The translations under genes were made by a program, and so were the position numbers. Below, one piece after another: positions 3,490 through 62,658 of a DNA stretch of 64,000 bases (position 1 is its first letter; each line of letters opens with the position of its first letter). The stretch is from the human T2T-CHM13v2.0 reference genome, Homo sapiens. The notes under the pieces were generated by a model, which did no database searches, was not told the DNA's origin, and saw only the letters and a list, made by a program, of their open reading frames with translations. Location: the NCBI GenBank assembly GCA_009914755.4, contig CP086569.2, positions 43,360,001 through 43,424,000 of the forward strand, read 5' to 3'.

Positions 3490-3810
<321 letters not shown>

Positions 3811-15586: not shown

Positions 15587-15908
<322 letters not shown>

Positions 15909-18007: not shown

Positions 18008-18328
<321 letters not shown>

Positions 18329-20427: not shown

Positions 20428-20748
<321 letters not shown>

Positions 20749-22843: not shown

Positions 22844-23164
<321 letters not shown>

Positions 23165-25263: not shown

Positions 25264-25584
<321 letters not shown>

Positions 25585-27679: not shown

Positions 27680-28000
<321 letters not shown>

Positions 28001-30095: not shown

Positions 30096-30416
<321 letters not shown>

Positions 30417-32511: not shown

Positions 32512-32832
<321 letters not shown>

Positions 32833-34925
32833 ATATTTTTTAAATGAAAAAAAATTTCAAAGGTACTCTGCTTGGTACAATAATCAAATGTATAAACTGA
32901 GGAATAAAACATAACCATGAAACCTACTTATAACTGCATATGGAAAATACAGAGGATAATTTTTTAAATCACATATTTTGAAAGCCTTAACTAGTAATTT
33001 GAAGAGTTGGCATTTGAAAGGCCAGTATGAATATACCTTCAAAGCAGCAACACAGGTTCCCCATGAGAAAAAGCAAACTCAGGGAAAATAAAACCACAAA
33101 GGTTCAATCTCTTCTGACCTTTGAAAGACACAGCACAGACAGTGGTCCTTAGGACGAAGAGCAGGAGACCCCTAATTCCGTCACCATGGCGATAGGGCAT
33201 AAACATTGCTGGGTGAGGGCACAATCCACATTGTGAGGTCCAACTGCTGCCAGGAAGACAGGAGTGCTTTTACATAGACCGAAAGGTCATTGAAGGCTCA
33301 GAGTTTTGTTTCAAGAACTGAATCCCAAGCCCACACGTTATTAGGCTGCGCTTCTTAAAACAAGTTATGAGATGGGAAAAAGGGCACCTACAAACATACG
33401 TATACATTATGTATATAATAATATACAGTATCATATATATAATATATATAACCCATGTATAATATTGTTTTACATCCTGCATCTTATATTATATATATTG
33501 TATAAAATATAATAATTGATAATATATAAATTTTATATTTATACAATATGACATATAGTATATATTATAATTTATTACATATATAATATATGTTATATAT
33601 CATATATAGAATATATTATACGGTTAATATACGTATTAAATATAAATTATACATTATATATATTATATATAATATATCTGCTATATATAATACCCATTGT
33701 GCATAATATATATATTATGTCTATGTTATATAATATAAAACAACATATAATAATATATAATTGCATATATAAAACGCGACATATAATATATATTATATTT
33801 TATGACATATGTAATATATATTATATATTATATATAATACGTTGTATGTATAATACCTATATTAAATATAAATTATATGACTATGTTATTAATTACATGT
33901 CACATATGTTATATATTATATATTTTACATAGAATATACCGGTTACATACAATATATACTATGTTACCTATAATGTATAATTTATTACATGTAAAATAAA
34001 GAATGCAATATATTATGTATAATTTATAATATACAATATGTGGAATGTGATATATATAACATATAATATATGATATATGATATACAGTATATGATATATA
34101 ACATACAATATATGATACCTAATATATATGGTATACAATATATATTTTATGATATGTATTCTATATGTTTTATATTCTGATATATATAACTATTTGAAAT
34201 TATATATAACTGTATAATATTTTATGTAAATATGTAATATAATATATAACTATATAATATATTATATATAACTATATATTATGTTATATATACTTTTATA
34301 ACATAATTTACATAAAATATCATAATATAATATATATTATATTATTTCATATTACATAATATATATTACATATCACCCAATATAAGTAACATACATAATA
34401 TTATAATATAGATTATATTATGTTATATTAAATATCATATATATCATGTATCATATATTCTATAATATATATGATACATTATATAATATGTATGCTGTCT
34501 ATTATGTGATATATATAACTATATATAATTATATTATTATACATATTACTAGATAAACATGTAATTCTACATATTTTCATTTATAATATATAGAATTATA
34601 TAATCATATATAATTATTTATATTCTATAAAAAATTATATCATTATATAAATTATAATATATAAAAATTATAATATGTACTACAAATATATATATTATAT
34701 ATCATATATGATATAGTACCTTTGTTATATATCATAATACATATAAATGTGTATTATGCTATCTATAATTATATAATTTCATATATAAGATGTATAATAT
34801 GTATTATATATTATATATGTTATGTAATATATATAGCATATATAAGATGACACAGGATAAATATTATATACTATGACATATAAAATATATGAGGTTATAT
34901 GTTACATATAAGGCATAGCACATAA

Positions 34926-35246
<321 letters not shown>

Positions 35247-37339
35247 ATATTTTTTAAATGAAAAAAAATTTCAAAGGTACTCTGCTTGGTACAATAATCA
35301 AATGTATAAACTGAGGAATAAAACATAACCATGAAACCTACTTATAACTGCATATGGAAAATACAGAGGATAATTTTTTAAATAACATATTTTGAAAGCC
35401 TTAACTAGTAATTTGAAGAGTTGGCATTTGAAAGGCCAGTATGAATACACCATCAAAGCAGCAACACAGGTTCCCCATGAGAAAAAGCAAACTCAGGGAA
35501 AATAAAACCACAAAGGTTCAATCTCTTCTGACCTTTGAAAGACACAGCACAGACAGTGGTCCTTAGGACGAAGAGCAGGAGACCCCTAATTCCGTCACCA
35601 TGGCGATAGGGCATAAACATTGCTGGGTGAGGGCACAATCCACATTGTGAGGTCCAACTGCTGCCAGGAAGACAGGAGTGCTTTTACATAGACCGAAAGG
35701 TCATTGAAGGCTCAGAGTTTTGTTTCAAGAACTGAATCCCAAGCCCACACGTTATTAGGCTGCGCTTCTTAAAACAAGTTATGAGATGGGAAAAAGGGCA
35801 CCTACAAACATACGTATACATTATGTATATAATAATATACAGTATCATATATATAATATATATAACCCATGTATAATATTGTTTTACATCCTGCATCTTA
35901 TATTATATATATTGTATAAAATATAATAATTGATAATATATAAATTTTATATTTATACAATATGACATATAGTATATATTATTATTTATTACATATATAA
36001 TATATGTTATATATCATATATAGAATATATTATACGGTTAATATACGAATTAAATATAAATTATACATTATATATATTATATATAATATATCTGCTATAT
36101 ATAATACCCATTGTGCATAATATATATATTATGTCTATGTTATATAATATAAAACAACATATAATAATATATAATTGCATATATAAAACGCGACATATAA
36201 TATATATTATATTTTATGACATATGTAATATATATTATATATTATATATAATACGTTGTATGTATAATACCTATATTAAATATAAATTATATGACTATGT
36301 TATTAATTACATGTCACATATGTTATATATTATATATTTTACATAGAATATACCGGTTACATACAATATATACTATGTTACCTATAATGTATAATTTATT
36401 ACATGTAAAATAAAGAATGCAATATATTATGTATAATTTATAATATACAATATGTGGAATGTGATATATATAACATATAATATATGATATATGATATACA
36501 GTATATGATATATAACATACAATATATGATACCTAATATATATGGTATACAATATATATTTTATGATATGTATTCTATATGTTTTATATTCTGATATATA
36601 TAACTATTTGAAATTATATATAACTGTATAATATTTTATGTAAATATGTAATATAATATATAACTATATAATATATTATATATAACTATATATTATGTTA
36701 TATATACTTTTATAACATAATTTACATAAAATATCATAATATAATATATATTATATTATTTCATATTACATAATATATATTACATATCACCCAATATAAG
36801 TAACATACATAATATTATAATATAGATTATATTATGTTATATTAAATATCATATATATCATGTATCATATATTCTATAATATATATGATACATTATATAA
36901 TATGTATGCTGTCTATTATGTGATATATATAACTATATATAATTATATTATTATACATATTACTAGATAAACATGTAATTCTACATATTTTCATTTATAA
37001 TATATAGAATTATATAATCATATATAATTATTTATATTCTATAAAAAATTATATCATTATATAAATTATAATATATAAAAATTATAATATGTACTACAAA
37101 TATATATATTATATATCATATATGATATAGTACCTTTGTTATATATCATAATACATATAAATGTGTATTATGTTATCTATAATTATATAATTTCATATAT
37201 AAGATGTATAATATGTATTATATATTATATATGTTATGTAATATATATAGTATATATAAGATGACACAGGATAAATATTATATACTATGACATATAAAAT
37301 ATATGAGGTTATATGTTACATATAAGGCATAGCACATAA

Positions 37340-37660
<321 letters not shown>

Positions 37661-39755
37661 ATATTTTTTAAATGAAAAAAAATTTCAAAGGTACTCTGCT
37701 TGGTACAATAATCAAATGTATAAACTGAGGAATAAAACATAACCATGAAACCTACTTATAACTGCATATGGAAAATACAGAGGATAATTTTTTAAATAAC
37801 ATATTTTGAAAGCCTTAACTAGTAATTTGAAGAGTTGGCATTTGAAAGGCCAGTATGAATACACCTTCAAAGCAGCAACACAGGTTCCCCATGAGAAAAA
37901 GCAAACTCAGGGAAAATAAAACCACAAAGGTTCAATCTCTTCTGACCTTTGAAAGACACAGCACAGACAGTGGTCCTTAGGACGAAGAGCAGGAGACCCC
38001 TAATTCCGTCACCATGGCGATAGGGCATAAACATTGCTGGGTGAGGGCACAATCCACATTGTGAGGTCCAACTGCTGCCAGGAAGACAGGAGTGCTTTTA
38101 CATAGACCGAAAGGTCATTGAAGGCTCAGAGTTTTGTTTCAAGAACTGAATCCCAAGCCCACACGTTATTAGGCTGCGCTTCTTAAAACAAGTTATGAGA
38201 TGGGAAAAAGGGCACCTACAAACATACGTATACATTATGTATATAATAATATACAGTATCATATATATAATATATATAACCCATGTATAATATTGTTTTA
38301 CATCCTGCATCTTATATTATATATATTGTATAAAATATAATAATTGATAATATATAAATTTTATATTTATACAATATGACATATAGTATATATTATAATT
38401 TATTACATATATAATATATGTTATATATCATATATAGAATATATTATACGGTTAATATACGTATTAAATATAAATTATACATTATATATATTATATATAA
38501 TATATCTGCTATATATAATACCCATTGTGCATAATATATATATTATGTCTATGTTATATATAGTATAAAACAACATATAATAATATATAATTGTATATAT
38601 AAAACGCGACATATAATATATATTATATTTTATGACATATGTAATATATATTATATATTATATATAATACGTTGTATGTATAATACCTATATTAAATATA
38701 AATTATATGACTATGTTATTAATTACATGTCACATATGTTATATATTATATATTTTACATAGAATATACCGGTTACATACAATATATACTATGTTACCTA
38801 TAATGTATAATTTATTACATGTAAAATAAAGAATGCAATATATTATGTATAATTTATAATATACAATATGTGGAATGTGATATATATAACATATAATATA
38901 TGATATATGATATACAGTATATGATATATAACATACAATCTATGATACCTAATATATATGGTATACAATATATATTTTATGATATGTATTCTATATGTTT
39001 TATATTCTGTTATATATAACTATTTGAAATTATATATAACTGTATAATATTTTATGTAAATATGTAATATAATATATAACTATATAATATATTATATATA
39101 ACTATATATTATGTTATATATACTTTTATAACATAATTTACATAAAATATCATAATATAATATATATTATATTATTTCATATTACATAATATATATTACA
39201 TATCACCCAATATAAGTAACATACATAATATTATAATATAGATTATATTATGTTATATTAAATATCATATATATCATGTATCATATATTCTATAATATAT
39301 ATGATACATTATATAATATGTATGTTGTCTATTATGTGATATATATAACTATATATAATTATATTATTATACATATTACTAGATAAACATGTAATTCTAC
39401 ATATTTTCATTTATAATATATAGAATTATATAATCATATATAATTATTTATATTCTATAAAAAATTATATCATTATATAAATTATAATATATAAAAATTA
39501 TAATATGTACTACAAATATATATATTATATATCATATATGATATAGTACCTTTGTTATATATCATAATACATATAAATGTGTATTATGTTATCTATAATT
39601 ATATAATTTCATATATAAGATATATAATATGTATTATATATTATATATGTTATGTAATATATATAGTATATATAAGATGACACAGGATAAATATTATATA
39701 CTATGACATATAAAATATATGAGGTTATATGTTACATATAAGGCATAGCACATAA

Positions 39756-40076
<321 letters not shown>

Positions 40077-42171
40077 ATATTTTTTAAATGAAAAAAAATT
40101 TCAAAGGTACTCTGCTTGGTACAATAATCAAATGTATAAACTGAGGAATAAAACATAACCATGAAACCTACTTATAACTGCATATGGAAAATACAGAGGA
40201 TAATTTTTTAAATAACATATTTTGAAAGCCTTAACTAGTAATTTGAAGAGTTGGCATTTGAAAGGCCAGTATGAATATACCTTCAAAGCAGCAACACAGG
40301 TTCCCCATGAGAAAAAGCAAACTCAGGGAAAATAAAACCACAAAGGTTCAATCTCTTCTGACCTTTGAAAGACACAGCACAGACAGTGGTCCTTAGGACG
40401 AAGAGCAGGAGACCCCTAATTCCGTCACCATGGCGATAGGGCATAAACATTGCTGGGTGAGGGCACAATCCACATTGTGAGGTCCAACTGCTGCCAGGAA
40501 GACAGGAGTGCTTTTACATAGACCGAAAGGTCATTGAAGGTTCAGAGTTTTGTTTCAAGAACTGAATCCCAAGCCCACACGTTATTAGGCTGCGCTTCTT
40601 AAAACAAGTTATGAGATGGGAAAAAGGGCACCTACAAACATATGTATACATTATGTATATAATAATATACAGTATCATATATATAATATATATAACCCAT
40701 GTATAATATTGTTTTACATCCTGCATCTTATGTTATATATATTGTATAAAATATAATAATTGATAATATATAAATTTTATATTTATACAATATGACATAT
40801 AGTATATATTATAATTTATTACATATATAATATATGTTATATATCATATATAGAATATATTCTATGGTTAATATACGTATTAAATATAAATTATACATTA
40901 TATATATTATATATAATATATCTGCTATATATAATACCCATTGTGCATAATATATATATTATGTCTATGTTATATATAGTATAAAACAACATATAATAAT
41001 ATATAATTGTATATATAAAACGCGACGTATAATATATATTATATTTTATGACAGATGTAATATATATTATATATTATATATAATACGTTGTATGTATAAT
41101 ACCTATATTAAATATAAATTATATGACTATGTTATTAATTACATGTCACATATGTTATATATTATATATTTTACATAGAATATACCGGTTAAATACAATA
41201 TATACTATGTTACCTATAATGTATAATTTATTACATGTAAAATAAAGAATGCAATATATTATGTATAATTTATAATATACAATATGTGGAATGTGATATA
41301 TATAACATATAATATATGATATATGATATACAGTATATGATATATAACATACAATGTATGATACCTAATATATATGGTATACAATATATATTTTATGATA
41401 TGTATTCTATATGTTTTATATTCTGTTATATATAACTATTTGAAATTATATATAACTGTATAATATTTTATGTAAATATGTAATATAATATATAACTATA
41501 TAATATATTATATATAACTATATATTATGTTATATATACTTTTATAACATAATTTACATAAAATATCATAATATAATATATATTATATTATTTCATATTA
41601 CATAATATATATTACATATCACCCAATATAAGTAACATACATAATATTATAATATAGATTATATTATGTTATATTAAATATCATATATATCATGTATCAT
41701 ATATTCTATAATATATATGATACATTATATAATATGTATGTTGTCTATTATGTGATATATATAACTATATATAATTATATTATTATACATATTACTAGAT
41801 AAACATGTAATTCTACATATTTTCCTTTATAATATATAGAATTATATAATCATATATAATTATTTATATTCTATAAAAAATTATATCATTATATAAATTA
41901 TAATATATAAAAATTATAATATGTACTACAAATATATATATTATATATCATATATGATATAGTACCTTTGTTATATATCATAATACATATAAATGTGTAT
42001 TATGTTATCTATAATTATATAATTTCATATATAAGATGTATAATATGTATTATATATTATATATGTTATGTAATATATATAGTATATATAAGATGACACA
42101 GGATAAATATTATATACTATGACATATAAAATATATGAGGTTATATGTTACATATAAGGCATAGCACATAA

Positions 42172-42492
<321 letters not shown>

Positions 42493-44585
42493 ATATTTTT
42501 TAAATGAAAAAAAATTTCAAAGGTACTCTGCTTGGTACAATAATCAAATGTATAAACTGAGGAATAAAACATAACCATGAAACCTACTTATAACTGCATA
42601 TGGAAAATACAGAGGATAATTTTTTAAATAACATATTTTGAAAGCCTTAACTAGTAATTTGAAGAGTTGGCATTTGAAAGGCCAGTATGAATACACCTTC
42701 AAAGCAGCAACACAGGTTCCCCATGAGAAAAAGCAAACTCAGGGAAAATAAAACCACAAAGGTTCAATCTCTTCTGACCTTTGAAAGACACAGCACAGAC
42801 AGTGGTCCTTAGGACGAAGAGCAGGAGACCCCTAATTCCGTCACCATGGCGATAGGGCATAAACATTGCTGGGTGAGGGCACAATCCACATTGTGAGGTC
42901 CAACTGCTGCCAGGAAGACAGGAGTGCTTTTACATAGACCGAAAGGTCATTGAAGGCTCAGAGTTTTGTTTCAAGAACTGAATCCCAAGCCCACACGTTA
43001 TTAGGCTGCGCTTCTTAAAACAAGTTATGAGATGGGAAAAAGGGCACCTACAAACATACGTATACATTATGTATATAATAATATACAGTATCATATATAT
43101 AATATATATAACCTATGTATAATATTGTTTTACATCCTGCATCTTATATTATATATATTGTATAAAATATAATAATTGATAATATATAAATTTTATATTT
43201 ATACAATATGACATATAGTATATATTATAATTTATTACATATATAATATATGTTATATATCATATATAGAATATATTATACGGTTAATATACGTATTAAA
43301 TATAAATTATACATTATATATATTATATATAATATATCTGCTATATATAATACCCATTGTGCATAATATATATATTATGTCTATGTTATATAATATAAAA
43401 CAACATATAATAATATATAATTGTATATATAAAACGCGACATATAATATATATTATATTTTATGACATATGTAATATATATTATATATTATATATAATAC
43501 GTTGTATGTATAATACCTATATTAAATATAAATTATATGACTATGTTATTAATTACATGTCACATATGTTATATATTATATATTTTACATAGAATATACC
43601 GGTTACATACAATATATACTATGTTACCTATAATGTATAATTTATTACATGTAAAATAAAGAATGCAATATATTATGTATAATTTATAATATACAATATG
43701 TGGAATGTGATATATATAACATATAATATATGATATATGATATACAGTATATGATATATAATATACAATATATGATACCTAATATATATGGTATACAATA
43801 TATATTTTATGATATGTATTCTATATGTTTTATATTCTGATATATATAACTATTTGAAATTATATATAACTGTATAATATTTTATGTAAATATGTAATAT
43901 AATATATAACTATATAATATATTATATATAACTATATATAATGTTATATATACTTTTATAACATAATTTACATAAAATATCATAATATAATATATATTAT
44001 ATTATTTCATATTACATAATATATATTACATATCACCCAATATAAGTAACATACATAATATTATAATATAGATTATATTATGTTATATTAAATATCATAT
44101 ATATCATGTATCATATATTCTATAATATATATGATACATTATATAATATGTATGCTGTCTATTATGTGATATATATAACTATATATAATTATATTATTAT
44201 ACATATTACTAGATAAACATGTAATTCTACATATTTTCATTTATAATATATAGAATTATATAATCATATATAATTATTTATATTCTATAAAAAATTATAT
44301 CATTATATAAATTATAATATATAAAAATTATAATATGTACTACAAATATATATATTATATATCATATATGATATAGTACCTTTGTTATATATCATAATAC
44401 ATATAAATGTGTATTATGTTATCTATAATTATATAATTTCATATATAAGATGTATAATATGTATTATATATTATATATGTTATGTAATATATATAGTATA
44501 TATAAGATGACACAGGATAAATATTATATACTATGACATATAAAATATATGAGGTTATATGTTACATATAAGGCATAGCACATAA

Positions 44586-44906
<321 letters not shown>

Positions 44907-45763
44907 ATATTTTTTAAATGAAAAAAAATTTCAAAGGTACTCTGCTTGGTACAATAATCAAATGTATAAACTGAGGAATAAAACATAACCATGAAACCTA
45001 CTTATAACTGCATATGGAAAATACAGAGGATAATTTTTTAAATCACATATTTTGAAAGCCTTAACTAGTAATTTGAAGAGTTGGCATTTGAAAGGCCAGT
45101 ATGAATATACCTTCAAAGCAGCAACACAGGTTCCCCATGAGAAAAAGCAAACTCAGGGAAAATAAAACCACAAAGGTTCAATCTCTTCTGACCTTTGAAA
45201 GACACAGCACAGACAGTGGTCCTTAGGACGAAGAGCAGGAGACCCCTAATTCCGTCACCATGGCGATAGCGCATAAACATTGCTGGGTGAGGGCACAATC
45301 CACATTGTGAGGTCCAACTGCTGCCAGGAAGACAGGAGTGCTTTTACATAGACCGAAAGGTCATTGAAGGCTCAGAGTTTTGTTTCAAGAACTGAATCCC
45401 AAGCCCACACGTTATTAGGCTGCGCTTCTTAAAACAAGTTATGAGATGGGAAAAAGGGCACCCACAAACATACGTATACATTATGTATATAATAATATAC
45501 AGTATCATATATATAATATATATAACCTATGTATAATATTGTTTTACATCCTGCATCTTATATTATATATATTGTATAAAATATAATAATTGATAAAATA
45601 TAAGTTTTATATTTATACAATATGACATATAGTATATATTATAATTTATGACATATATAATATATGTTATATATCATATATAGAATATATTATACGGTTA
45701 ATATACGTATTAAATATAAATTATACATTATATATATTATATAAAATATATCTGTTATATATA

Positions 45764-46576
45764 ATACCCATTATGCATAATATATATATTATGTCTATGT
45801 TATATATACTATAAAACAACATATAATAATATATAACTGTATATATAAAATGCGACATATAATATATATTATATTTTATGACATATGTAATATATATTAT
45901 ATATTATATATAATACGTTGTATGTATAATACCTATATTAAATATATATTATATGACTATGTTATTAATTACATGTCACATATGTTATATATTATATATT
46001 TTACATAGAATATACCGGTTACATACAATATATACTATGTTACCTATAATGTATAATTGATTACATGTAAAATAAAGAATGCAATATATTATGTATAATT
46101 TATAATATACAATATGTGGAATGTGATATATATAACATATAATATATGATATATGATATACAGTATATGATATATAACATACAATATATGATACCTGATA
46201 TATATGGTATACAATATATATTTTATGATATGTATTCTCTATGTTTTATATTCTGTTATATATAACTATTTGAAATTATATATAACTGTATAATATTTTA
46301 TGTAAATATGTAATATAATATATATAACTATATAATATTTTATATATAACTATATATTATGTTATATATACTTTTATAACATAATTTACATAAAATATCA
46401 TAATATAATATATATTATATTATTTCATATTACATAATATACATTCCATATGACCCAATATAAGTAACATACATAATATTATAATATAGATTATATTATG
46501 TTATATTAAATTTCATATATATCATGTATCATATATTCCATTATATATTATACATTATATAATATGTATGTTGTCT
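45764..46576. repeat. First copy of an ~813 bp intra-unit segment duplicated out of register (upstream-family sequence)
   Basis: 'atacccattatgcataatatatatattatgtctatg...' through '...atgtatgttgtcta' carries upstream-type variants ('ttatgacatatg', 'aatacgttgtatg', 'tatatgactatg', 'catatgttat', 'ataccggttac'). Confidence 0.8.
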
Positions 46577-47392
46577 AATACCCATTATGCATAATATATA
46601 TATTATGTCTATGTTATATATAGTATAAAACAACATATAATAATATATAATTGTATATATAAAATGCGACATATAATATATATTATATTTTATAACATAT
46701 GTAATATATATTATATATTATATATAATATGTTGTATGTATAATACCTATATTAAATATATATTATTTGACTATGTTATTAATTACATGTCACATGTGTT
46801 ATATATTGTATATTTTACATAGAATATATCAGTTACATACAATATATACTATGTTACCAATAATGTATAATTTATTACATGTAAAATAAAGAATGCAATA
46901 TATTATGTATAATTTATAATATACCATATGTGGAATGGATATATATAACATATAATATATGATATATGATATACAGTATATGATATATAACATACAATAT
47001 ATGATTCCTAATATATATGGTATACAATATATATTTTATGATATGTATTCTATATGTTTTATATTCTGTTATATATAACTATTTGAAATTATATATAACT
47101 GTATAATATTTTATGTAAATATGTAATATAATATATATAACTATATAATATATTATATATAGCTATATATTATGTTATATATACTTTCATAACATAATTT
47201 ACATAAAATATCATAATATAATATATATTATATTATTTCATATTACATAATATATATTACATATCACCCAATATAACTAACATACATAATATTATAATAT
47301 AGATTATATTATGTTATATTAAATATCATATAAATCATGTATCATATATTCTATAATATATATTACACATTATATAATATGTATGTTGTCTA
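46577..47392. repeat. Second copy of the duplicated intra-unit segment (downstream-family sequence). Junction at about 46576/46577 with 'ta' microhomology.
   Basis: At 46571 'ttgtcta|atacccattatgc' joins a point about 813 bp later in the unit back to an earlier point. The second copy carries 'ttataacatatg', 'aatatgttgtatg', 'tatttgactatg', 'catgtgttat', 'atattgtatatttt', 'atatcagttac', 'ccatatgtggaatggatatat', 'actttcataac', 'catataaatcatg'. These match the unit at 56.26-57.5k (offset about 9683 bp = 4 units). This produces the single 3233 bp unit between Alu copies 19 and 20. Confidence 0.8.
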
Positions 47393-47818
47393 TTATGTGA
47401 TATATATAACTATATGTATAATTATATTTTTATACATATAACTAGATAAACATGTAATTCTACATATTTTCATTTATAATATGTAGAATTATATAATCAT
47501 ATATAATTATTTATATTCTATAAAAAATTTTATCATTACATAAATTATAATATATAAAAATTATAATATGTACTACAAATATATATATTATATATCATAT
47601 ATGATATAGTACCTTTGTTATATATCATAATACATATAAATGTGTATTATGTTATCTATAATTATATAATTTCATATATAAGATGTATAATATGTATCAT
47701 ATATTATATATGTTATGTAATATATATAGTATATATAAGATGACACAGGATAAATATTACATACTATGACATATAAAATATATCAGGTTATATGTTACAT
47801 ATAAGGCATAGCACATAA

Positions 47819-48139
<321 letters not shown>

Positions 48140-50238
48140 ATATTTTTTAAATGAAAAAAAATTTCAAAGGTACTCTGCTTGGTACAATAATCAAATGTAT
48201 AAACTGAGGAATAAAACATAACCATGAAACCTACTTATAACTGCATATGGAAAATACAGAGGATAATTTTTTAAATAACATATTTTGAAAGCCTTAACTA
48301 GTAATTTGAAGAGCTGGCATTTGAAAGGCCAGTATGAATATACATTCAAATCAGCAACACAGGTTCCCCATGAGAAAAAGCAAACACAGGGAAAATAAAA
48401 ACACAAAGGTTCAATCTCTTCTGACCTTTGAAAGACACAGCACAGACAGTGGTCCTTAGGACGAAGAGCAGGAGACCCCTAATTCCGTCACCATGGCGAT
48501 AGGGCATAAACATTGCTGGGTGAGGGCACAATCCACATTGTGAGGTCCAACTGCTGCCAGGAAGACAGGAGTGCTTTTACATAGACCGAAAGGTCATTGA
48601 AGGCTCAGAGTTTTGTTTCAAGAACTGAATCCCAAGCCCACACGTTATTAGGCTGCGCTTCTTAAAACAAGTTATGAGATGGGAAAAAGGGCACCCACAA
48701 ACATACGTATACATTATGTATATAATAATATACAGTGTCATATATTTAATATATATAACCTATGTATAATATTGTTTTACATCCTGCATCTTATGTTATA
48801 TATATTGTATAAAATATAATAATTGATAATATATAAGTTTTATAATTATACAATATGACATATAGTATATATTATAATTTATGACATATATAATATATGT
48901 TATATGTCATATATAGAATATATTATACGGTTAATATACGTATTAAATATAAATTACACATTATATATATTATATATAATATATCTGTTATATATAATAC
49001 CCATTATGCATAATATATATATTATGTCTATGTTATATATAGTATAAAACAACATATAATAATATATAATTGTATATATAAAATGCGACATATAATATAT
49101 ATTATATTTTATAACATATGTAATATATATTATATATTATATATAATACGTTGTATGTATAATACCTATATTAAATATATATTATATGACTATGTTATTA
49201 ATTACATGTCACATGTGTTATATATTATATATTTTACATAGAATATACCGGTTACATACAATATATACTATGTTACCTATAATGTATAATTTATTACATG
49301 TAAAATAAAGAATGCAATATATTATGTATAATTTATAATATACCATATGTGGAATGTGATATATATAACATATAATATATGATATATGATATACAGTATA
49401 TGATATATAACATACAATATATGATTCCTAATATATATTGTATACAATATATATTTTATGATATGTATTCTATATGTTTTATATTCTGTTATATATAACT
49501 ATTTGAAATTATATATAACTGTATACTATTTTATGTAAATATGTAATATAATATATATAACTATATAATATATTACATATAACTATATATTATGTTATAT
49601 ATACTTTTATAACATAATTTACATAAAATATCATAATGTAATATATATTATATTATTTCATATTACATAATATATATTACATATCACCCAATATAACTAA
49701 CATACATAATATTATAATATAGATTATATTGTGTTATATTAAATATCATATATATCATGTATCATATATTCTATAATATATATTACACATTATATAATAT
49801 GTATGTTGTCTATTATGTGATATATATAACTATATATATAATTATATTTTTATACATATAACTAGATAAACATGTAATTCTACATATTTTCATTTATAAT
49901 ATGTAGAATTATATAATCATATATAATTATTTATATTCTATAAAAAATTTTATCATTACATAAATTATAATATATAAAAATTATAATATGTACTACAAAT
50001 ATATATATTATATATCATATATGATATAGTACCTTTGTTATATATCATAATACATATAAATGTGTATTATGTTATCTATAATTATATAATTTCATATATA
50101 AGATGTATAATATGTATCATATATTATATATGTTATGTAATATATATAGTATATATAAGATGACACAGGATAAATATTACATACTATGACATATAAAATA
50201 TATCAGGTTATATGTTACATATAAGGCATAGCACATAA

Positions 50239-50559
<321 letters not shown>

Positions 50560-52658
50560 ATATTTTTTAAATGAAAAAAAATTTCAAAGGTACTCTGCTT
50601 GGTACAATAATCAAATGTATAAACTGAGGAATAAAACATAACCATGAAACCTACTTATAACTGCATATGGAAAATACAGAGGATAATTTTTTAAATAACA
50701 TATTTTGAAAGCCTTAACTAGTAATTTGAAGAGCTGGCATTTGAAAGGCCAGTATGAATATACATTCAAATCAGCAACACAGGTTCCCCATGAGAAAAAG
50801 CAAACACAGGGAAAATAAAAACACAAAGGTTCAATCTCTTCTGACCTTTGAAAGACACAGCACAGACAGTGGTCCTTAGGACGAAGAGCAGGAGACCCCT
50901 AATTCCGTCACCATGGCGATAGGGCATAAACATTGCTGGGTGAGGGCACAATCCACATTGTGAGGTCCAACTGCTGCCAGGAAGACAGGAGTGCTTTTAC
51001 ATAGACCGAAAGGTCATTGAAGGCTCAGAGTTTTGTTTCAAGAACTGAATCCCAAGCCCACACGTTATTAGGCTGCGCTTCTTAAAACAAGTTATGAGAT
51101 GGGAAAAAGGGCACCCACAAACATACGTATACATTATGTATATAATAATATACAGTGTCATATATTTAATATATATAACCTATGTATAATATTGTTTTAC
51201 ATCCTGCATCTTATGTTATATATATTGTATAAAATATAATAATTGATAATATATAAGTTTTATAATTATACAATATGACATATAGTATATATTATAATTT
51301 ATGACATATATAATATATGTTATATGTCATATATAGAATATATTATACGGTTAATATACGTATTAAATATAAATTACACATTATATATATTATATATAAT
51401 ATATCTGTTATATATAATACCCATTATGCATAATATATATATTATGTCTATGTTATATATAGTATAAAACAACATATAATAATATATAATTGTATATATA
51501 AAATGCGACATATAATATATATTATATTTTATAACATATGTAATATATATTATATATTATATATAATACGTTGTATGTATAATACCTATATTAAATATAT
51601 ATTATATGACTATGTTATTAATTACATGTCACATGTGTTATATATTATATATTTTACATAGAATATACCGGTTACATACAATATATACTATGTTACCTAT
51701 AATGTATAATTTATTACATGTAAAATAAAGAATGCAATATATTATGTATAATTTATAATATACCATATGTGGAATGTGATATATATAACATATAATATAT
51801 GATATATGATATACAGTATATGATATATAACATACAATATATGATTCCTAATATATATTGTATACAATATATATTTTATGATATGTATTCTATATGTTTT
51901 ATATTCTGTTATATATAACTATTTGAAATTATATATAACTGTATAATATTTTATGTAAATATGTAATATAATATATATAACTATATAATATATTACATAT
52001 AACTATATATTATGTTATATATACTTTTATAACATAATTTACATAAAATATCATAATGTAATATATATTATATTATTTCATATTACATAATATATATTAC
52101 ATATCACCCAATATAACTAACATACATAATATTATAATATAGATTATATTGTGTTATATTAAATATCATATATATCATGTATCATATATTCTATAATATA
52201 TATTACACATTATATAATATGTATGTTGTCTATTATGTGATATATATAACTATATATATAATTATATTTTTATACATATAACTAGATAAACATGTAATTC
52301 TACATATTTTCATTTATAATATGTAGAATTATATAATCATATATAATTATTTATATTCTATAAAAAATTTTATCATTATATAAATTATAATATATAAAAA
52401 TTATAATATGTACTACAAATATATATATTATATATCATATATGATATAGTACCTTTGTTATATATCATAATACATATAAATGTGTATTATGTTATCTATA
52501 ATTATATAATTTCATATATAAGATGTATAATATGTATCATATATTATATATGTTATGTAATATATATAGTATATATAAGATGACACAGGATAAATATTAT
52601 ATACTATGACATATAAAATATATCAGGTTATATGTTACATATAAGGCATAGCACATAA

Positions 52659-52979
<321 letters not shown>

Positions 52980-55101
52980 ATATTTTTTAAATGAAAAAAA
53001 ATTTCAAAGGTACTCTGCTTGGTACAATAATCAAATGTATAAACTGAGGAATAAAACATAACCATGAAACCTACTTATAACTGCATATGGAAAATACAGA
53101 GGATAATTTTTTAAATAACATATTTTGAAAGCCTTAACTAGCAATTTGAAGAGTTGGCATTTGAAAGGCCAGTATGAATATACCTTCAAATCAGCAACAC
53201 AGGTTCCCCATGAGAAAAAGCAAACACAGGGAAAATAAAAACACAAAGGTTCAATCTCTTTTGACCTTTGAAAGACACAGCACAGACAGTGGTCCTTAGG
53301 ACGAAGAGCAGGAGACCCCTAATTCCGTCACCATGGCGATAGGGCATAAACATTGCTGGGTGAGGGCACAATCCACATTGTGAGGTCCAACTGCTGCCAG
53401 GAAGACAGGAGTGCTTTTACATAGACCGAAAGGTCATTGAAGGCTCAGAGTTTTGTTTCAAGAACTGAATCCCAAGCCCACACGTTATTAGGCTGCGCTT
53501 CTTAAAACAAGTTATGAGATGGGAAAAAGGGCACCCACAAACATACGTATACATTATGTATATAATAATATACAGTATCATATATATAATATATATAACC
53601 TATGTATAATATTGTTTTACATCCTGCATCTTATGTTATATATATTGTATAAAATATAATAATTGATAATATATAAGATTTATAATTATACAATATGACA
53701 TATAGTATATATTATAATTTATGACATATATAATATATGTTATATATCATATGTAGAATATATTATACGGTTAATATACGTATTAAATATAAATTATACA
53801 TTATATATATTATATATAATATATCTGTTATATATAATACACATTATGCATAATATATATATTATGTCTATGTTATATATAGTATAAAACAACATATAAT
53901 AATGTATAATTGTATATATAAAATGCGACATATAATATATATTATATTTTATAACATATGTAATATATACTATATATTATATATAATACGTTGTATGTAT
54001 AATACCTATATTAAATATATATTATATGACTATGTTATTAATTACATGTCACATGTGTTATATATTATACATTTTACATAGAATATACCGGTTACATACA
54101 ATATATACTATGTTACCTATAATGTGTAATTTATTACATGTAAAATAAAGAATGCAATATATTATGTATAATTTATAATATACAATATGTGGAATGTGAT
54201 ATAGATAACATATAATATATGATATATGATATACAGTATATGATATATAACATACAATATATGATTCCTAATATATATGGTATACAATATATATTTTATG
54301 ATATGTATTCTATATGTTTTATATTCTGTTATATATAACTATTTGAAATTATATATAACTGTATAATATTTTATGTAAATATGTAATATAATATATATAA
54401 CTATATAATATATTATAGATAACTATATATTATGTTATATATACTTTTATAACATAATTTACATAAAATATCATAATATAATATATATTATATTATTTCA
54501 TATTACATAATATATATTACATATCACCCAATATAACTAACATACATAATATTATAATATAGATTATATTGTGTTATATTATATATCATATATATCATGT
54601 ATCATATATTCTATAATATATATTACACATTATATAATATGTATGTTGTCTATTATGTGATATATATAACTATATATATAATTATATTTTTATACATATA
54701 ACTAGATAAACATGTAATTCTACATATTTTCATTTATAATATGTAGAATTATATAATCATATATAATTATTTATATTCTATAAAAAATTTTATCATTATA
54801 TAAATTATAATATATAAAAATTATAATATGTACTACAAATATATATATTATATATCATATATGATATAGTACCTTTGTTATATATCATAATACATATAAA
54901 TGTGTATTATGTTATCTATAATTATATAATTTCATATATAAGATGTACAATATGTATCATATATTATATATGTTATGTAATATATATAGTATATATAAGA
55001 TGACACAGGATAAATATTATATACTATGACATATAAAATATATCAGGTTATATGTTACATATAAGGCATAGCACATAACATGTAATATGTATCATATATA
55101 A

Positions 55102-55399
55102 TTTTTTTTTAGACAGAATCTTGTCCTGTTGCACAGGGTGGGGTACAATGGCGCCATCTTTGCTCACTGCAACTTCTGCCTCATGGGTCCAAGCGATTGT
55201 CCTCCCTCAGCCTCCCAGGTAGCTGGGACTACACCACACTGGGACTACACCAGCTGCCACCATGCCTAGCTAATTTTTTGTATTTTTAGTAGTGACAGCG
55301 TTTCACTGTATTGGCCAGGATGGTCTTGATCTCTTCACCTTGTGATCCCCTTGCCTTGGCCTCCAAATTTGCTGGGATTACAGGCCTGAGCCAAGATCC
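55102..55399 (-). mobile_element. Alu SINE, copy 23 (domain-II variants plus 'ctcatgggtcc' and 'ttttgtatttttag')
   Basis: Same Alu sequence at the unit period. Confidence 0.92.
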
Positions 55400-57497
55400 A
55401 TATTTTTTAAATGAAAAAAAATTTCAAAGGTACTCTGCTTGGTACAATAATCAAATGTATAAACTGAGGAATAAAACATAACCATGAAACCTACTTATAA
55501 CTGCATATGGAAAATACAGAGGATAATTTTTTAAATAACATATTTTGAAAGCCTTAACTAGTAATTTGAAGAGTTGGCATTTGAAAGGCCAGTATGAATA
55601 TACCTTCAAAGCAGCAACACAGGTTCCCCATGAGAAAAAGCAAACACAGGGAAAATAAAAACACAAAGGTTCAATCTCTTCTGACCTTTGAAAGACACAG
55701 CACAGACAGTGGTCCTTAGGACGAAGAGCAGGAGACCCCTAATTCCGTCACCATGGCGATAGGGCATAAACATTGCTGGGTGAGGGCACAATCCACATTG
55801 TGAGGTCCAACTGCTGCCAGGAAGACAGGAGTGCTTTTACATAGACCGAAAGGTCATTGAAGGCTCAGAGTTTTGTTTCAAGAACTGAATCCCAAGCCCA
55901 CACGTTATTAGGCTGCGCTTCTTAAAACAAGTTATGAGATGGGAAAAAGGGCACCCACAAACATACGTATACATTATGTATATAATAATATACAGTATCA
56001 TATATATACTATATATAACCTATGTATAATATTGTTTTACATCCTGCATCTTATGTTATATATATTGTATAAAATATAATAATTGATAATATATAAGTTT
56101 TATAAATATACAATATGACATATAGTATATATTATAATTTATGACATATATAATATATGTTATATGTCATATATAGAATATATTATACGGTTAATATACG
56201 TATTAAATATAAATTATACATTATATATATTATATATAATATATCTGTTATATATAATACCCATTATGCATAATATATATATTATGTCTATGTTATATAT
56301 AGTATAAAACAACATATAATAATATATAATTGTATATATAAAATGCGACATATAATATATATTATATTTTATAACATATGTAATATATATTATATATTAT
56401 ATATAATATGTTGTATGTATAATACCTATATTAAATATATATTATTTGACTATGTTATTAATTACATGTCACATGTGTTATATATTGTATATTTTACATA
56501 GAATATATCGGTTACATACAATATATACTATGTTACCTATAATGTATAATTTATTACATGTAAAATAAAGAATGCAATATATTATGTATAATTTATAATA
56601 TACCATATGTGGAATGGATATATATAACATATAATATATGATATATGATATACAGTATATGATATATAACATACAATATATGATTCCTAATATATATGGT
56701 ATACAATATATATTTTATGATATGTATTCTATATGTTTTATATTCTGTTATATATAACTATTTGAAATTATATATAACTGTATAATATTTTATGTAAATA
56801 TGTAATATAATATATATAACTATATAATATATTATATATAACTATATATTATGTTATATATACTTTCATAACATAATTTACATAAAATATCATAATATAA
56901 TATATATTATATTATTTCATATTACATAATATATATTACATATCACCCAATATAACTAACATACATAATATTATAATATAGATTATATTATGTTATATTA
57001 AATATCATATAAATCATGTATCATATATTCTATAATATATATTACACATTATATAATATGTATGTTGTCTATTATGTGATATATATAACTATATATATAA
57101 TTATATTTTTATACATATAACTAGATAAACATGTAATTCTACATATTTTCATTTATAATATGTAGAATTATATAATCATATATAATTATTTATATTCTAT
57201 AAAAAATTTTATCATTACATAAATTATAATATATAAAAATTATAATATGTACTACAAATATATATATTATATATCATATATGATATAGTACCTTTGTTAT
57301 ATATCATAATACATATAAATGTGTATTATGTTATCTATAATTATATAATTTCATATATAAGATGTATAATATGTATCATATATTATATATGTTATGTAAT
57401 ATATATAGTATATATAAGATGACACAGGATAAATATTATATACTATGACATATAAAATATATGAGGTTATATGTTACATATAAGGCATAGCACATAA

Positions 57498-57818
<321 letters not shown>

Positions 57819-59917
57819 ATATTTTTTAAATGAAAAAAAATTTCAAAGGTACTCTGCTTGGTACAATAATCAAATGTATAAACTGAGGAATAAAACATAA
57901 CCATGAAACCTACTTATAACTGCATATGGAAAATACAGAGGATAATTTTTTAAATAACATATTTTGAAAGCCTTAACTAGTAATTTGAAGAGCTGGCATT
58001 TGAAAGGCCAGTATGAATATACATTCAAATCAGCAACACAGGTTCCCCATGAGAAAAAGCAAACACAGGGAAAATAAAAACACAAAGGTTCAATCTCTTC
58101 TGACCTTTGAAAGACACAGCACAGACAGTGGTCCTTAGGACGAAGAGCAGGAGACCCCTAATTCCGTCACCATGGCGATAGGGCATAAACATTGCTGGGT
58201 GAGGGCACAATCCACATTGTGAGGTCCAACTGCTGCCAGGAAGACAGGAGTGCTTTTACATAGACCGAAAGGTCATTGAAGGCTCAGAGTTTTGTTTCAA
58301 GAACTGAATCCCAAGCCCACACGTTATTAGGCTGCGCTTCTTAAAACAAGTTATGAGATGGGAAAAAGGGCACCCACAAACATACGTATACATTATGTAT
58401 ATAATAATATACAGTGTCATATATTTAATATATATAACCTATGTATAATATTGTTTTACATCCTGCATCTTATGTTATATATATTGTATAAAATATAATA
58501 ATTGATAATATATAAGTTTTATAATTATACAATATGACATATAGTATATATTATAATTTATGACATATATAATATATGTTATATGTCATATATAGAATAT
58601 ATTATACGGTTAATATACGTATTAAATATAAATTACACATTATATATATTATATATAATATATCTGTTATATATAATACCCATTATGCATAATATATATA
58701 TTATGTCTATGTTATATATAGTATAAAACAACATATAATAATATATAATTGTATATATAAAATGCGACATATAATATATATTATATTTTATAACATATGT
58801 AATATATATTATATATTATATATAATACGTTGTATGTATAATACCTATATTAAATATATATTATATGACTATGTTATTAATTACATGTCACATGTGTTAT
58901 ATATTATATATTTTACATAGAATATACCGGTTACATACAATATATACTATGTTACCTATAATGTATAATTTATTACATGTAAAATAAAGAATGCAATATA
59001 TTATGTATAATTTATAATATACCATATGTGGAATGTGATATATATAACATATAATATATGATATATGATATACAGTATATGATATATAACATACAATATA
59101 TGATTCCTAATATATATTGTATACAATATATATTTTATGATATGTATTCTATATGTTTTATATTCTGTTATATATAACTATTTGAAATTATATATAACTG
59201 TATAATATTTTATGTAAATATGTAATATAATATATATAACTATATAATATATTACATATAACTATATATTATGTTATATATACTTTTATAACATAATTTA
59301 CATAAAATATCATAATGTAATATATATTATATTATTTCATATTACATAATATATATTACATATCACCCAATATAACTAACATACATAATATTATAATATA
59401 GATTATATTGTGTTATATTAAATATCATATATATCATGTATCATATATTCTATAATATATATTACACATTATATAATATGTATGTTGTCTATTATGTGAT
59501 ATATATAACTATATATATAATTATATTTTTATACATATAACTAGATAAACATGTAATTCTACATATTTTCATTTATAATATGTAGAATTATATAATCATA
59601 TATAATTATTTATATTCTATAAAAAATTTTATCATTATATAAATTATAATATATAAAAATTATAATATGTACTACAAATATATATATTATATATCATATA
59701 TGATATAGTACCTTTGTTATATATCATAATACATATAAATGTGTATTATGTTATCTATAATTATATAATTTCATATATAAGATGTATAATATGTATCATA
59801 TATTATATATGTTATGTAATATATATAGTATATATAAGATGACACAGGATAAATATTATATACTATGACATATAAAATATATCAGGTTATATGTTACATA
59901 TAAGGCATAGCACATAA

Positions 59918-60238
<321 letters not shown>

Positions 60239-62360
60239 ATATTTTTTAAATGAAAAAAAATTTCAAAGGTACTCTGCTTGGTACAATAATCAAATGTATA
60301 AACTGAGGAATAAAACATAACCATGAAACCTACTTATAACTGCATATGGAAAATACAGAGGATAATTTTTTAAATAACATATTTTGAAAGCCTTAACTAG
60401 TAATTTGAAGAGTTGGCATTTGAAAGGCCAGTATGAATATACCTTCAAATCAGCAACACAGGTTCCCCATGAGAAAAAGCAAACACAGGGAAAATAAAAA
60501 CACAAAGGTTCAATCTCTTTTGACCTTTGAAAGACACAGCACAGACAGTGGTCCTTAGGACGAAGAGCAGGAGACCCCTAATTCCGTCACCATGGCGATA
60601 GGGCATAAACATTGCTGGGTGAGGGCACAATCCACATTGTGAGGTCCAACTGCTGCCAGGAAGACAGGAGTGCTTTTACATAGACCGAAAGGTCATTGAA
60701 GGCTCAGAGTTTTGTTTCAAGAACTGAATCCCAAGCCCACACGTTATTAGGCTGCGCTTCTTAAAACAAGTTATGAGATGGGAAAAAGGGCACCCACAAA
60801 CATACGTATACATTATGTATATAATAATATACAGTATCATATATATAATATATATAACCTATGTATAATATTGTTTTACATCCTGCATCTTATGTTATAT
60901 ATATTGTATAAAATATAATAATTGATAATATATAAGATTTATAATTATACAATATGACATATAGTATATATTATAATTTATGACATATATAATATATGTT
61001 ATATATCATATGTAGAATATATTATACGGTTAATATACGTATTAAATATAAATTATACATTATATATATTATATATAATATATCTGTTATATATAATACA
61101 CATTATGCATAATATATATATTATGTCTATGTTATATATAGTATAAAACAACATATAATAATGTATAATTGTATATATAAAATGCGACATATAATATATA
61201 TTATATTTTATAACATATGTAATATATACTATATATTATATATAATACGTTGTATGTATAATACCTATATTAAATATATATTATATGACTATGTTATTAA
61301 TTACATGTCACATGTGTTATATATTATACATTTTACATAGAATATACCGGTTACATACAATATATACTATGTTACCTATAATGTGTAATTTATTACATGT
61401 AAAATAAAGAATGCAATATATTATGTATAATTTATAATATACAATATGTGGAATGTGATATATATAACATATAATATATGATATATGATATACAGTATAT
61501 GATATATAACATACAATATATGATTCCTAATATATATGGTATACAATATATATTTTATGATATGTATTCTATATGTTTTATATTCTGTTATATATAACTA
61601 TTTGAAATTATATATAACTGTATAATATTTTATGTAAATATGTAATATAATATATATAACTATATAATATATTATAGATAACTATATATTATGTTATATA
61701 TACTTTTATAACATAATTTACATAAAATATCATAATATAATATATATTATATTATTTCATATTACATAATATATATTACATATCACCCAATATAACTAAC
61801 ATACATAATATTATAATATAGATTATATTGTGTTATATTAAATATCATATATATCATGTATCATATATTCTATAATATATATTACACATTATATAATATG
61901 TATGTTGTCTATTATGTGATATATATAACTATATATATAATTATATTTTTATACATATAACTAGATAAACATGTAATTCTACATATTTTCATTTATAATA
62001 TGTAGAATTATATAATCATATATAATTATTTATATTCTATAAAAAATTTTATCATTATATAAATTATAATATATAAAAATTATAATATGTACTACAAATA
62101 TATATATTATATATCATATATGATATAGTACCTTTGTTATATATCATAATACATATAAATGTGTATTATGTTATCTATAATTATATAATTTCATATATAA
62201 GATGTATAATATGTATCATATATTATATATGTTATGTAATATATATAGTATATATAAGATGACACAGGATAAATATTATATACTATGACATATAAAATAT
62301 ATCAGGTTATATGTTACATATAAGGCATAGCACATAACATGTAATATGTATCATATATAA

Positions 62361-62658
62361 TTTTTTTTTAGACAGAATCTTGTCCTGTTGCACAGGGTGG
62401 GGTACAATGGCGCCATCTTTGCTCACTGCAACTTCTGCCTCATGGGTCCAAGCGATTGTCCTCCCTCAGCCTCCCAGGTAGCTGGGACTACACCACACTG
62501 GGACTACACCAGCTGCCACCATGCCTAGCTAATTTTTTGTATTTTTAGTAGTGACAATGTTTCACTGTATTGGCCAGGATGGTCTTGATCTCTTTACCTT
62601 GTGATCCCCTTGCCTTGGCCTCCAAATTTGCTGGGATTACAGGCCTGAGCCAAGATCC
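62361..62658 (-). mobile_element. Alu SINE, copy 26 (domain-II variants plus 'ctcatgggtcc', 'ttttgtatttttag', private 'gacaatgtttcac')
   Basis: Same Alu sequence at the unit period. Matches copy 23 apart from the private changes. Confidence 0.92.

What the first reader, a model, noticed from the sequence alone, without database searches (positions are those of the whole stretch)
45764..47392. Out-of-register junction inside one unit: ~813 bp duplication, 'ta' microhomology, sits at the boundary between two sequence families
At about 46576/46577 the sequence jumps back about 813 bp within the unit ('...atgtatgttgtcta|atacccattatgcat...'). This creates the only 3233 bp unit in the window. The copy left of the junction carries upstream-family variants. 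The copy to the right carries the downstream-family variants, which then persist to the window end. These are 'gacagaatcttg', 'gggtacaatgg' and 'aacttctgcc' in the Alu, and 'ttcaaatcagcaac' and 'caaacacagggaaaataaaaacac' in the core. The segment right of the junction matches the unit 4 periods downstream (56.26-57.5k) at several diagnostic sites. This looks like a fossil of a non-allelic, microhomology-mediated join between two diverged array segments (or haplotypes). It is not a simple in-register unequal crossover.
Basis: seen in the sequence. Interest (0 to 1): 0.65.

Follow-up and report, generated by a model that had tools for sequence, protein, structure and literature searches.

The report
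Out-of-phase join inside DYZ2 satellite array
One repeat unit of a human-type DYZ2/HSat1B satellite array is 815 bp too long because two units of different, already diverged sub-families were joined out of phase without homology, an ordinary scar of satellite rearrangement that marks exactly where one sub-family ends and the other begins.

Summary
The window holds 26 tandem units of 2414-2421 bp of DYZ2/HSat1B type, and one unit (44610-47842) is 3233 bp. It holds two adjacent copies of the same 815-bp AT-rich segment (45764-46577 and 46578-47392) that are 96.3% identical. The join string is unique in the window and has no filler bases.

Thirteen near-fixed differences separate units 1-18 from units 20-25. 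The odd unit has the upstream allele at 10 of 10 sites left of the join and the downstream allele at 7 of 7 sites right of it.

The right copy is a sister of the unit four periods downstream (3 differences, 7 exclusive shared alleles). The two copies share no exclusive allele, so they are not sister duplicates.

- The left copy is an old upstream-lineage unit with 12 private variants. It does not belong to the adjacent homogenised sub-family.
- The 2-bp TA overlap arises by chance in 37% of random joins here, so "microhomology-mediated" is unproven.
- The "duplication" may only be a phase shift left by a large deletion or an unequal exchange.

Best reading: a non-homologous end join between two diverged array segments. 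An assembly chimera cannot be excluded without reads. This is ordinary satellite dynamics and of low interest.

The parts
44610..47842 (.). The single 3233-bp variant unit (unit 19) of the array
   Evidence: The spacing of unit anchors is 3233 bp here and 2414-2421 bp everywhere else.
44610..44900 (-). 5'-truncated, roughly 20% diverged Alu of unit 19. Its sequence is identical to the Alu of upstream sub-family B units 10, 12, 13, 15 and 18.
   Evidence: Aligns to AluY consensus positions 13-288 on the minus strand (the consensus was recalled from memory). There is a sub-threshold hit to the Alu-derived family mir-1268. It has 0 differences from B units over columns 0-310.
45044..45463 (.). 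Interval that holds an in-register switch inside unit 19, from sub-family B (unit-14-like) to an old, unhomogenised upstream-lineage sequence
   Evidence: The last B/unit-14-specific allele is at column 434 (45044). The first missing B-derived allele that unit 14 itself carries is at column 853 (45463). All later B-derived alleles are absent.
45764..46577 (.). Left copy of the 815-bp AT-rich segment. It belongs to the upstream deep lineage and has 12 private variants.
   Evidence: It carries 4 of 4 upstream alleles at the fixed sites. It is 21-29 differences from every other unit and has 12 private variants. It shares no exclusive allele with the right copy.
46576..46577 (.). TA dinucleotide shared by both parental contexts at the join. 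The join lies at 46577/46578, with no filler bases.
   Evidence: Comparison of the junction with the normal end and start contexts. The overlap is 2 bp on the left and 0 on the right; the chance of an overlap of 2 bp or more is 0.365.
46578..47392 (.). Right copy of the segment. It is the truncated first unit (type X) of the downstream family.
   Evidence: It carries 4 of 4 downstream alleles at the fixed sites. It has 3 differences from, and 7 exclusive shared alleles with, unit 23 at 56257-57071.
47393..47842 (.). Tail of unit 19, downstream-family type
   Evidence: It has 1-4 differences from units 20-25 and 11-25 from units 1-18. It carries 3 of 3 downstream alleles at the fixed sites.
25288..44609 (.). 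Upstream homogenised sub-family B (units 11-18, 2414-2416 bp)
   Evidence: Variant matrix and distances of 6-26 differences per unit.
47843..64000 (.). Downstream family C (units 20-26, 2419-2420 bp). With the truncated X at the join (46578-47842), the unit types read X Y Y Z X Y Z.
   Evidence: At all 13 fixed sites this family carries the allele that predominates in external DYZ2 copies.
56257..57071 (.). Closest relative (sister) of the right copy, in unit 23
   Evidence: 3 differences in 816 columns and 7 alleles shared exclusively.

Best explanation
The window is a tandem array of the human-type 2.4-kb DYZ2/HSat1B satellite. At 46577/46578 two units that were not neighbours or sisters were joined end to end without homology and out of phase.

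On the left is an old, diverged unit of a locally isolated lineage, broken at unit offset about 1968. On the right is a type-X unit of a mainstream-type family with a repeating higher-order pattern of unit types, broken at offset about 1154.

The join was most likely made by end joining after double-strand breakage. It could have been a large intra-array deletion of n x 2420 - 815 bp, a non-homologous unequal sister-chromatid exchange, or one edge of an inserted block.

The apparent 815-bp duplication is the phase difference between the two broken units. The join has no function. It is a scar that fixes the boundary between two separately homogenised domains.

Shown: the anatomy, the lineage switch at the join, the lack of sisterhood between the two copies, and the absence of homology at the breakpoints.

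Inferred: the repair pathway, the order of events, and that the join exists in the genome rather than only in the assembly.
For: - There is a single 3233-bp unit and a unique junction string.
- The two 815-bp copies are only 96.3% identical and share no exclusive allele. The right copy shares 7 exclusive alleles with unit 23.
- At the 13 near-fixed differences between units 1-18 and 20-25, unit 19 is 10 of 10 upstream left of the join and 7 of 7 downstream right of it.
- At all 13 sites the downstream allele is the one that predominates in 20-odd external DYZ2 copies. The upstream alleles are rare there and never occur together as a haplotype. So the two sides belong to lineages that were separated long before the join.
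- The right side is in phase with the downstream X-Y module that recurs at units 23-24. The full-length X unit has its own Alu and core. The downstream family therefore existed before one of its X units was cut.
- Ungapped identity around the two breakpoints is 40-50% over 40-160 bp, which I take to be about background for sequence this AT-rich (no null was computed), so homologous or homeologous recombination is not indicated.
- Other family transitions in the window (units 8-11, and inside unit 19 at 45044-45463) are in-register mosaics. This shows what homologous exchange looks like here.
Against: - Only one assembled haplotype is available and no reads, so an artefactual join cannot be excluded.
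- A join between two different lineages is also what a chimeric contig would look like.
- The lineage switch is only localised to a 143-230 bp interval around the join, not to the base.
- An old local duplication could mimic this if its right copy was later overwritten by conversion up to the heterology boundary.
- The event type (deletion, exchange or insertion) cannot be resolved from the window.
Confidence: 0.6

Rival explanations
1. An old local tandem duplication of 815 bp arose inside a single unit, by replication slippage, template switching or end joining on one chromatid. Each side was later homogenised separately. The right copy was overwritten by the downstream family through gene conversion or crossover that stopped at the heterology created by the junction.
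For: The structure is formally a head-to-tail duplication with a clean junction. A heterology boundary can stop heteroduplex extension, so a conversion tract ending at the join is conceivable (inference). In-register exchange is clearly active in this array.
Against: The two copies share no exclusive derived allele. The left copy is old, with 12 private variants, and the right is 3 differences from unit 23. This model therefore needs an extra event whose end falls within 117 bp of the join. By my estimate that is about 9% of the 1265 bp available if endpoints are random. It also still needs an independent reason why a mainstream-type lineage lies next to a long-isolated one at this spot.
Confidence: 0.2
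2. The junction is an assembly or read chimera. Sequence from two different DYZ2 sub-arrays (or haplotypes or chromosomes) was concatenated, and the join does not exist in the genome.
For: The join coincides with a switch between two deep lineages, and the phase is arbitrary, as expected for a chimera. The junction was not seen in any of 27 external DYZ2 joints recovered from other public assemblies.
Against: Overlap-based assemblers make false joins in register, where long near-identical overlaps exist. They do not join across a 2-bp overlap (general knowledge). The junction is clean, without filler, adapter or low-quality sequence. The right side starts in phase with the downstream unit-type pattern, and both flanks are good DYZ2 sequence. 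Length-variant DYZ2 units of 1,275-3,719 bp are reported in validated Y assemblies. The external sample is small and mostly made of collapsed consensus units, so absence there says little.
Confidence: 0.12
3. Homeologous recombination between internal sub-repeats of the AT-rich region. On this view the join is out of register for the 2.4-kb unit but in register for a shorter internal repeat.
For: The AT-rich part is built from degenerate short repeats of 7-46 bp, with one 230-bp period.
Against: Ungapped identity across the two breakpoints is 50%, 42% and 41% over 40, 80 and 160 bp, which I take to be about background for this composition (no null was computed). The exact shared sequence is only 2 bp.
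Confidence: 0.05

Closest known systems
DYZ2 / HSat1B satellite of human Yq12 and acrocentric short arms, including its known length-variant units
   Same: The period is about 2420 bp. The unit is tripartite: an AT-rich simple-repeat part, a 5'-truncated Alu of about 290 bp that is about 20% diverged, and a GC-richer HSATI part of about 560 bp. ACATACG sits at the HSATI/AT-rich boundary (45468-45474). The units are 98-99% identical to the DYZ2-type sequences found as contamination in bacterial assemblies (descriptions). Published Y assemblies report units of 1,275-3,719 bp, with length change mainly in the AT-rich part. The 3233-bp unit fits that pattern.
   Different: The papers I read give length ranges. 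In the parts I read I saw no base-level anatomy of such a variant and no statement that one marks a sub-family boundary. Only about half of the units here are exactly 2420 bp, against 93.7% on Yq12, so this is a diverged part of the family. The chromosome of origin is unknown.
In-register unequal crossing-over and gene conversion, the standard model of satellite homogenisation
   Same: The window shows its usual products. There are homogenised blocks (units 11-18 and 20-25), a recurring X/Y/Z pattern of unit types, and in-register mosaic units at 18032-27703 and 45044-45463.
   Different: The join at 46577/46578 shifts the phase by 815 bp and has no homology at the breakpoints. It is not a product of that mechanism.
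End-joining (NHEJ or alt-EJ/MMEJ) deletion and duplication junctions of structural variants
   Same: The junction is clean, has a 0-2 bp overlap and no flanking homology, and joins two non-adjacent sequences.
   Different: The pathway cannot be assigned. A 2-bp overlap is expected by chance in this AT-rich sequence (P = 0.365). There is no templated insertion.

Membership tests
DYZ2 / HSat1B satellite | Tandem unit of about 2.4 kb (median 2,420 bp) | tested here: met
   There are 25 spacings between 26 unit anchors. Twenty-four are 2414-2421 bp, of which 11 are exactly 2420.
DYZ2 / HSat1B satellite | Tripartite unit: AT-rich part above 85% AT, a 5'-truncated Alu of about 290 bp at about 20% divergence, and a GC-richer HSATI part of about 566 bp | tested here: met
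   GC is 0.12-0.15 in the AT-rich part and 0.30-0.40 in the rest. The Alu alignment covers consensus positions 13-288 at about 80% identity (the consensus was recalled from memory). The core spans about 44901-45467.
DYZ2 / HSat1B satellite | ACATACG at the junction of HSATI and the AT-rich repeat (Hallast et al. consensus) | tested here: met
   It is seen at 45468-45474 on the + strand in the sequence. The feature is described.
DYZ2 / HSat1B satellite | Location on Yq12 or on an acrocentric short arm | not testable with these tools
   No human reference was available. The only external copies are unlabelled contaminant contigs.
Microhomology-mediated end joining (MMEJ) | Microhomology at the junction beyond what chance gives | tested here: inconclusive
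   The overlap is 2 bp (TA). For random joins in the AT-rich part, P(2 bp or more) = 0.365 and the mean is 1.48 bp.
Homologous in-register unequal crossover | Repeat phase preserved and extended homology across the exchange point | tested here: not met
   The phase shifts by 815 bp. Identity at the breakpoints is 40-50%, which I take to be about background for this composition.
Recent local tandem duplication (sister copies) | The two copies are each other's closest relatives and share derived alleles | tested here: not met
   There are 30 differences between the copies and 0 exclusive shared alleles. The right copy's closest relative is unit 23, with 3 differences and 7 exclusive alleles.
Cruciform or palindrome-driven breakage (PATRR-like) | Unusually stable hairpin potential at the breakpoints | tested here: not met
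   DNA folding energies of 80-nt windows at the breakpoints are -4.4 to -8.6 kcal/mol. Across the AT-rich part and adjacent sequence the mean is -6.9 with sd 2.0.

The most novel reading that the evidence does not exclude
The junction may be the footprint of a transfer or seeding event. In this reading a block of mainstream (core-Yq12-type) HSat1B was joined by end joining onto a long-isolated, diverged HSat1B array, for example a peripheral Yq12 array or an acrocentric short arm. That would give a base-resolved and datable example of the inter-array seeding that has been proposed for this satellite family.
Probability: 0.12. Interest if true: 0.45.

Novelty: new member of a known kind. Interest (0 to 1): 0.2.

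Why it matters
The finding gives a base-level anatomy for one of the rare long DYZ2 units that Y-chromosome assemblies report only as a length class. It also shows that a boundary between two separately homogenised satellite domains can be a non-homologous, out-of-phase join rather than a gradual in-register mosaic.

The unique junction sequence (46562-46592) would make a convenient single-copy marker inside an otherwise unmappable array. It could be used to validate the assembly and to genotype or date this rearrangement across haplotypes.

It does not point to a new mechanism or function.

Tried and rejected
1. Extended or homeologous similarity at the two breakpoints: ungapped identity is 40-50%, with no sign of extended homology, so rejected.
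2. Microhomology as evidence of MMEJ: the 2-bp overlap has P = 0.365 by chance, so it is uninformative.
3. Hairpin or cruciform propensity at the breakpoints: not different from the rest of the AT-rich part, so rejected.
4. Sister-copy duplication: no exclusive shared alleles between the two copies, so rejected as the present state.
5. The junction in other public data: a degenerate pattern matching both the normal and the junction joints found 27 normal DYZ2 joints in contaminated bacterial-genome and metagenome contigs and none of junction type. The two AATA-type hits, L006 and L022, lie in unrelated DNA. Viral contigs gave nothing at all. This is too small and too consensus-like a sample to argue against the junction.
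6. An external home for the left copy's 12 private variants or for the upstream haplotype: none found.
7. Rfam scan of the odd unit: only a sub-threshold hit to the Alu-derived family mir-1268.
8. Chromosome assignment (Y or acrocentric): not possible with the collections available.

Full report
**What the window is.** The window is one tandem array. A blastn search with the GC-richer 861 bp of one unit finds 26 copies, all on the + strand. They are spaced 2414-2421 bp apart, with a single exception of 3233 bp between 44610 and 47843.

Each unit has three parts. The first is a roughly 290-bp stretch that aligns on the minus strand to AluY consensus positions 13-288 at about 80% identity (I recalled the consensus from memory). 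Rfam gives only a sub-threshold hit there, to the Alu-derived family mir-1268. The second part is a roughly 560-bp GC-richer core. The third is about 1.5 kb of sequence that is 85-88% A+T.

This matches the published description of DYZ2/HSat1B: a unit of about 2.4 kb with a median of 2,420 bp, made of an AT-rich simple repeat, a 5'-truncated and roughly 20% diverged Alu, and HSATI, with ACATACG at the HSATI/AT-rich boundary. That motif is at 45468-45474 here.

A pattern search of bacterial-genome and metagenome contigs recovered 22 contaminant contigs or contig pieces with the same repeat. The best of them are 98-99% identical to the window's units. This fits the report that HSat1B is a common human contaminant of microbial assemblies. 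The source is therefore very probably human. I could not tell whether it is Yq12 or an acrocentric short arm.

**Checking the observation.** The junction string GTTGTCTAATACCCATT occurs once, at 46570. The normal continuation GTTGTCTATTATGTG occurs 20 times.

The left copy (45764-46577) and the right copy (46578-47392) align with 30 differing columns of 816, which is 96.3% identity. Comparing the junction with the normal end and start contexts shows a clean join. There is no filler, and exactly two bases (TA) are shared by both parents.

The right copy and its tail each differ at 3 columns from the unit four periods downstream.

**Family structure.** I aligned 24 whole units plus two versions of the odd unit, each with one of the two copies removed. 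Three groups emerge:
- Units 1-10 are heterogeneous. Units 1-7 differ from one another at 41-82 columns per unit, and units 8-10 are in-register mosaics.
- Units 11-18 form a homogenised sub-family B. They are 2414-2416 bp long and differ at 6-26 columns.
- Units 20-25 form family C. They are 2419-2420 bp long and differ at 1-31 columns. Counting the right copy of unit 19 as the first X, the unit types read X Y Y Z X Y Z.

Thirteen columns are fixed or nearly fixed between units 1-18 and units 20-25. Unit 19 carries the upstream allele at all six of these sites in its Alu, core and proximal AT-rich part, and at all four in the left copy. It carries the downstream allele at all four in the right copy and at all three in the tail. 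The switch is confined to 46464-46694, an interval that contains the join.

At all 13 sites the downstream allele is the one that predominates among the external DYZ2 copies. The upstream alleles are rare outside the window (0-4 exact 21-mer matches each) and never occur together on one external contig. Units 1-19-left are therefore a locally isolated, diverged lineage, and family C is of the mainstream type.

The left copy is not of the adjacent sub-family B. From column 498 to the join, unit 19 lacks every B-derived allele. In the 815-bp segment it is 21-29 differences from every unit in the window, and it has 12 private variants there. Those figures resemble the old units 3, 5 and 6, which have 10-15 private variants each.

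Only the Alu and part of the core of unit 19 are of B type. The Alu has 0 differences from five B units, and one rare allele is shared with unit 14. There is an in-register switch somewhere in 45044-45463. Unit 19-left is best read as a relic of the old upstream array, caught between the B expansion and the join.

**Are the two copies sisters?** They are not. They share no exclusive or rare allele. By contrast the right copy shares seven alleles exclusively with unit 23, and known sister pairs in the window share 2-7.

The full-length X unit (unit 23) has its own C-type Alu and core, which unit 19 lacks. The most economical order of events is that family C already existed and one of its X units was cut at offset about 1154.

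**Mechanism.** There is no sign of homology at the breakpoints. Ungapped identity is 50%, 42% and 41% over 40, 80 and 160 bp, which I take to be about background for sequence this AT-rich; I did not compute a null for it. This argues against homologous or homeologous exchange.

The TA overlap carries no information. For random joins within the AT-rich part of a standard unit, an overlap of 2 bp or more occurs 36.5% of the time, and the mean overlap is 1.48 bp.

The breakpoints do not coincide with unusually stable DNA hairpins. Their folding energies are -4.4 to -8.6 kcal/mol, against a mean of -6.9 and sd of 2.0.

I conclude that the junction is an end-joining type scar between two units of different lineage and different phase. 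The "813-bp duplication" need not have been a duplication event. Three events give the same sequence: a deletion of n x 2420 - 815 bp between two distant units, a non-homologous unequal sister-chromatid exchange, or the edge of an inserted block. The window cannot separate them, because family C runs to its end.

**Rivals.**
- An old local duplication whose right copy was later overwritten by family C, up to the heterology boundary, remains possible. It needs an extra event ending within 117 bp of the join. It also does not explain why a mainstream lineage abuts an isolated one at this spot. I give it about 0.2.
- An assembly or read chimera would also produce a lineage switch at an arbitrary phase, and it cannot be tested without reads. 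Against it, overlap-based false joins should be in register, the junction is clean, and the right side is in phase with the downstream unit-type pattern. I give it about 0.12.
- Recombination between internal sub-repeats is disfavoured.

**Comparison with what is known.** Published analyses of complete Y assemblies report DYZ2 units of 1,275-3,719 bp. Of these, 93.7% are exactly 2,420 bp, and the length change lies mainly in the AT-rich segment. They also report more diverged units toward array and region peripheries, and evolution by unequal sister-chromatid exchange with gene conversion.

A 3233-bp unit at a boundary between a diverged block and a mainstream-type block fits that picture. What this analysis adds is a base-level anatomy. 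It also shows that this particular domain boundary is a non-homologous, out-of-phase join. The other transitions in the same window are in-register mosaics.

**Verdict.** The feature is real and correctly located. It is a new instance of a known kind of satellite structural variant, with no functional implication. Interest is low, about 0.2. Its main practical value is as a unique marker for validating and genotyping this array.

Noticed in passing
window 18032-27703 (units 8-11): The transition from the heterogeneous units to sub-family B runs through in-register mosaic units. Unit 9 is unit-8-like in its Alu, core and first half of the AT-rich part and B-like afterwards. Unit 11 has a unit-8/9-type Alu on a B body. 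These are typical products of homologous unequal exchange or conversion, and they contrast with the out-of-phase join at 46577.
   Followed up: partly
window 46578-62361 (right copy of unit 19 to unit 25): Family C has a repeating pattern of unit types, X Y Y Z X Y Z. Units 21 and 24 differ at 1 column and units 22 and 25 at 4, which suggests a 3-unit (about 7.26 kb) higher-order period with one extra Y. The partial unit 26 does not clearly continue the pattern.
   Followed up: partly
window 1094-3513 versus 15612-18031 (units 1 and 7): Units 1 and 7, six periods apart, are nearly identical in the 815-bp AT-rich segment (1 difference) but differ at 41 columns over the whole unit. This suggests a patchy long-range conversion or an old duplication inside the heterogeneous block.
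   Followed up: no
window 1-46577 versus 46578-64000: At all 13 near-fixed differences between units 1-18 and 20-25 the downstream allele equals the majority allele of external DYZ2 copies. The upstream block is therefore a long-isolated lineage and the downstream family is of the mainstream type. No external contig carries the upstream haplotype.
   Followed up: yes
L001-L005 (LZSC01000004.1 Mycobacterium sp.; CALPCJ010000037.1 Senimuribacter sp.; BMRF01000089.1 Actinomadura cremea; WYCU01000700.1 Azonexaceae bacterium; JAPCYN010000165.1 Legionella sp.): Small contigs (0.3-2.5 kb) in bacterial genome assemblies consist of DYZ2/HSat1B sequence. L001-L003 are 98-99% identical to the window's units; the shorter L004 and L005 carry the same normal joint. 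They are almost certainly human contamination, as the T2T-Y paper describes.
   Followed up: partly
window 44738-44760 (minus-strand Alu of each unit): Relative to the AluY consensus, the DYZ2 Alu carries an internal insertion of about 22 bp that repeats GTAGTCCCAG. It appears to belong to the unit itself and is not specific to unit 19.
   Followed up: no
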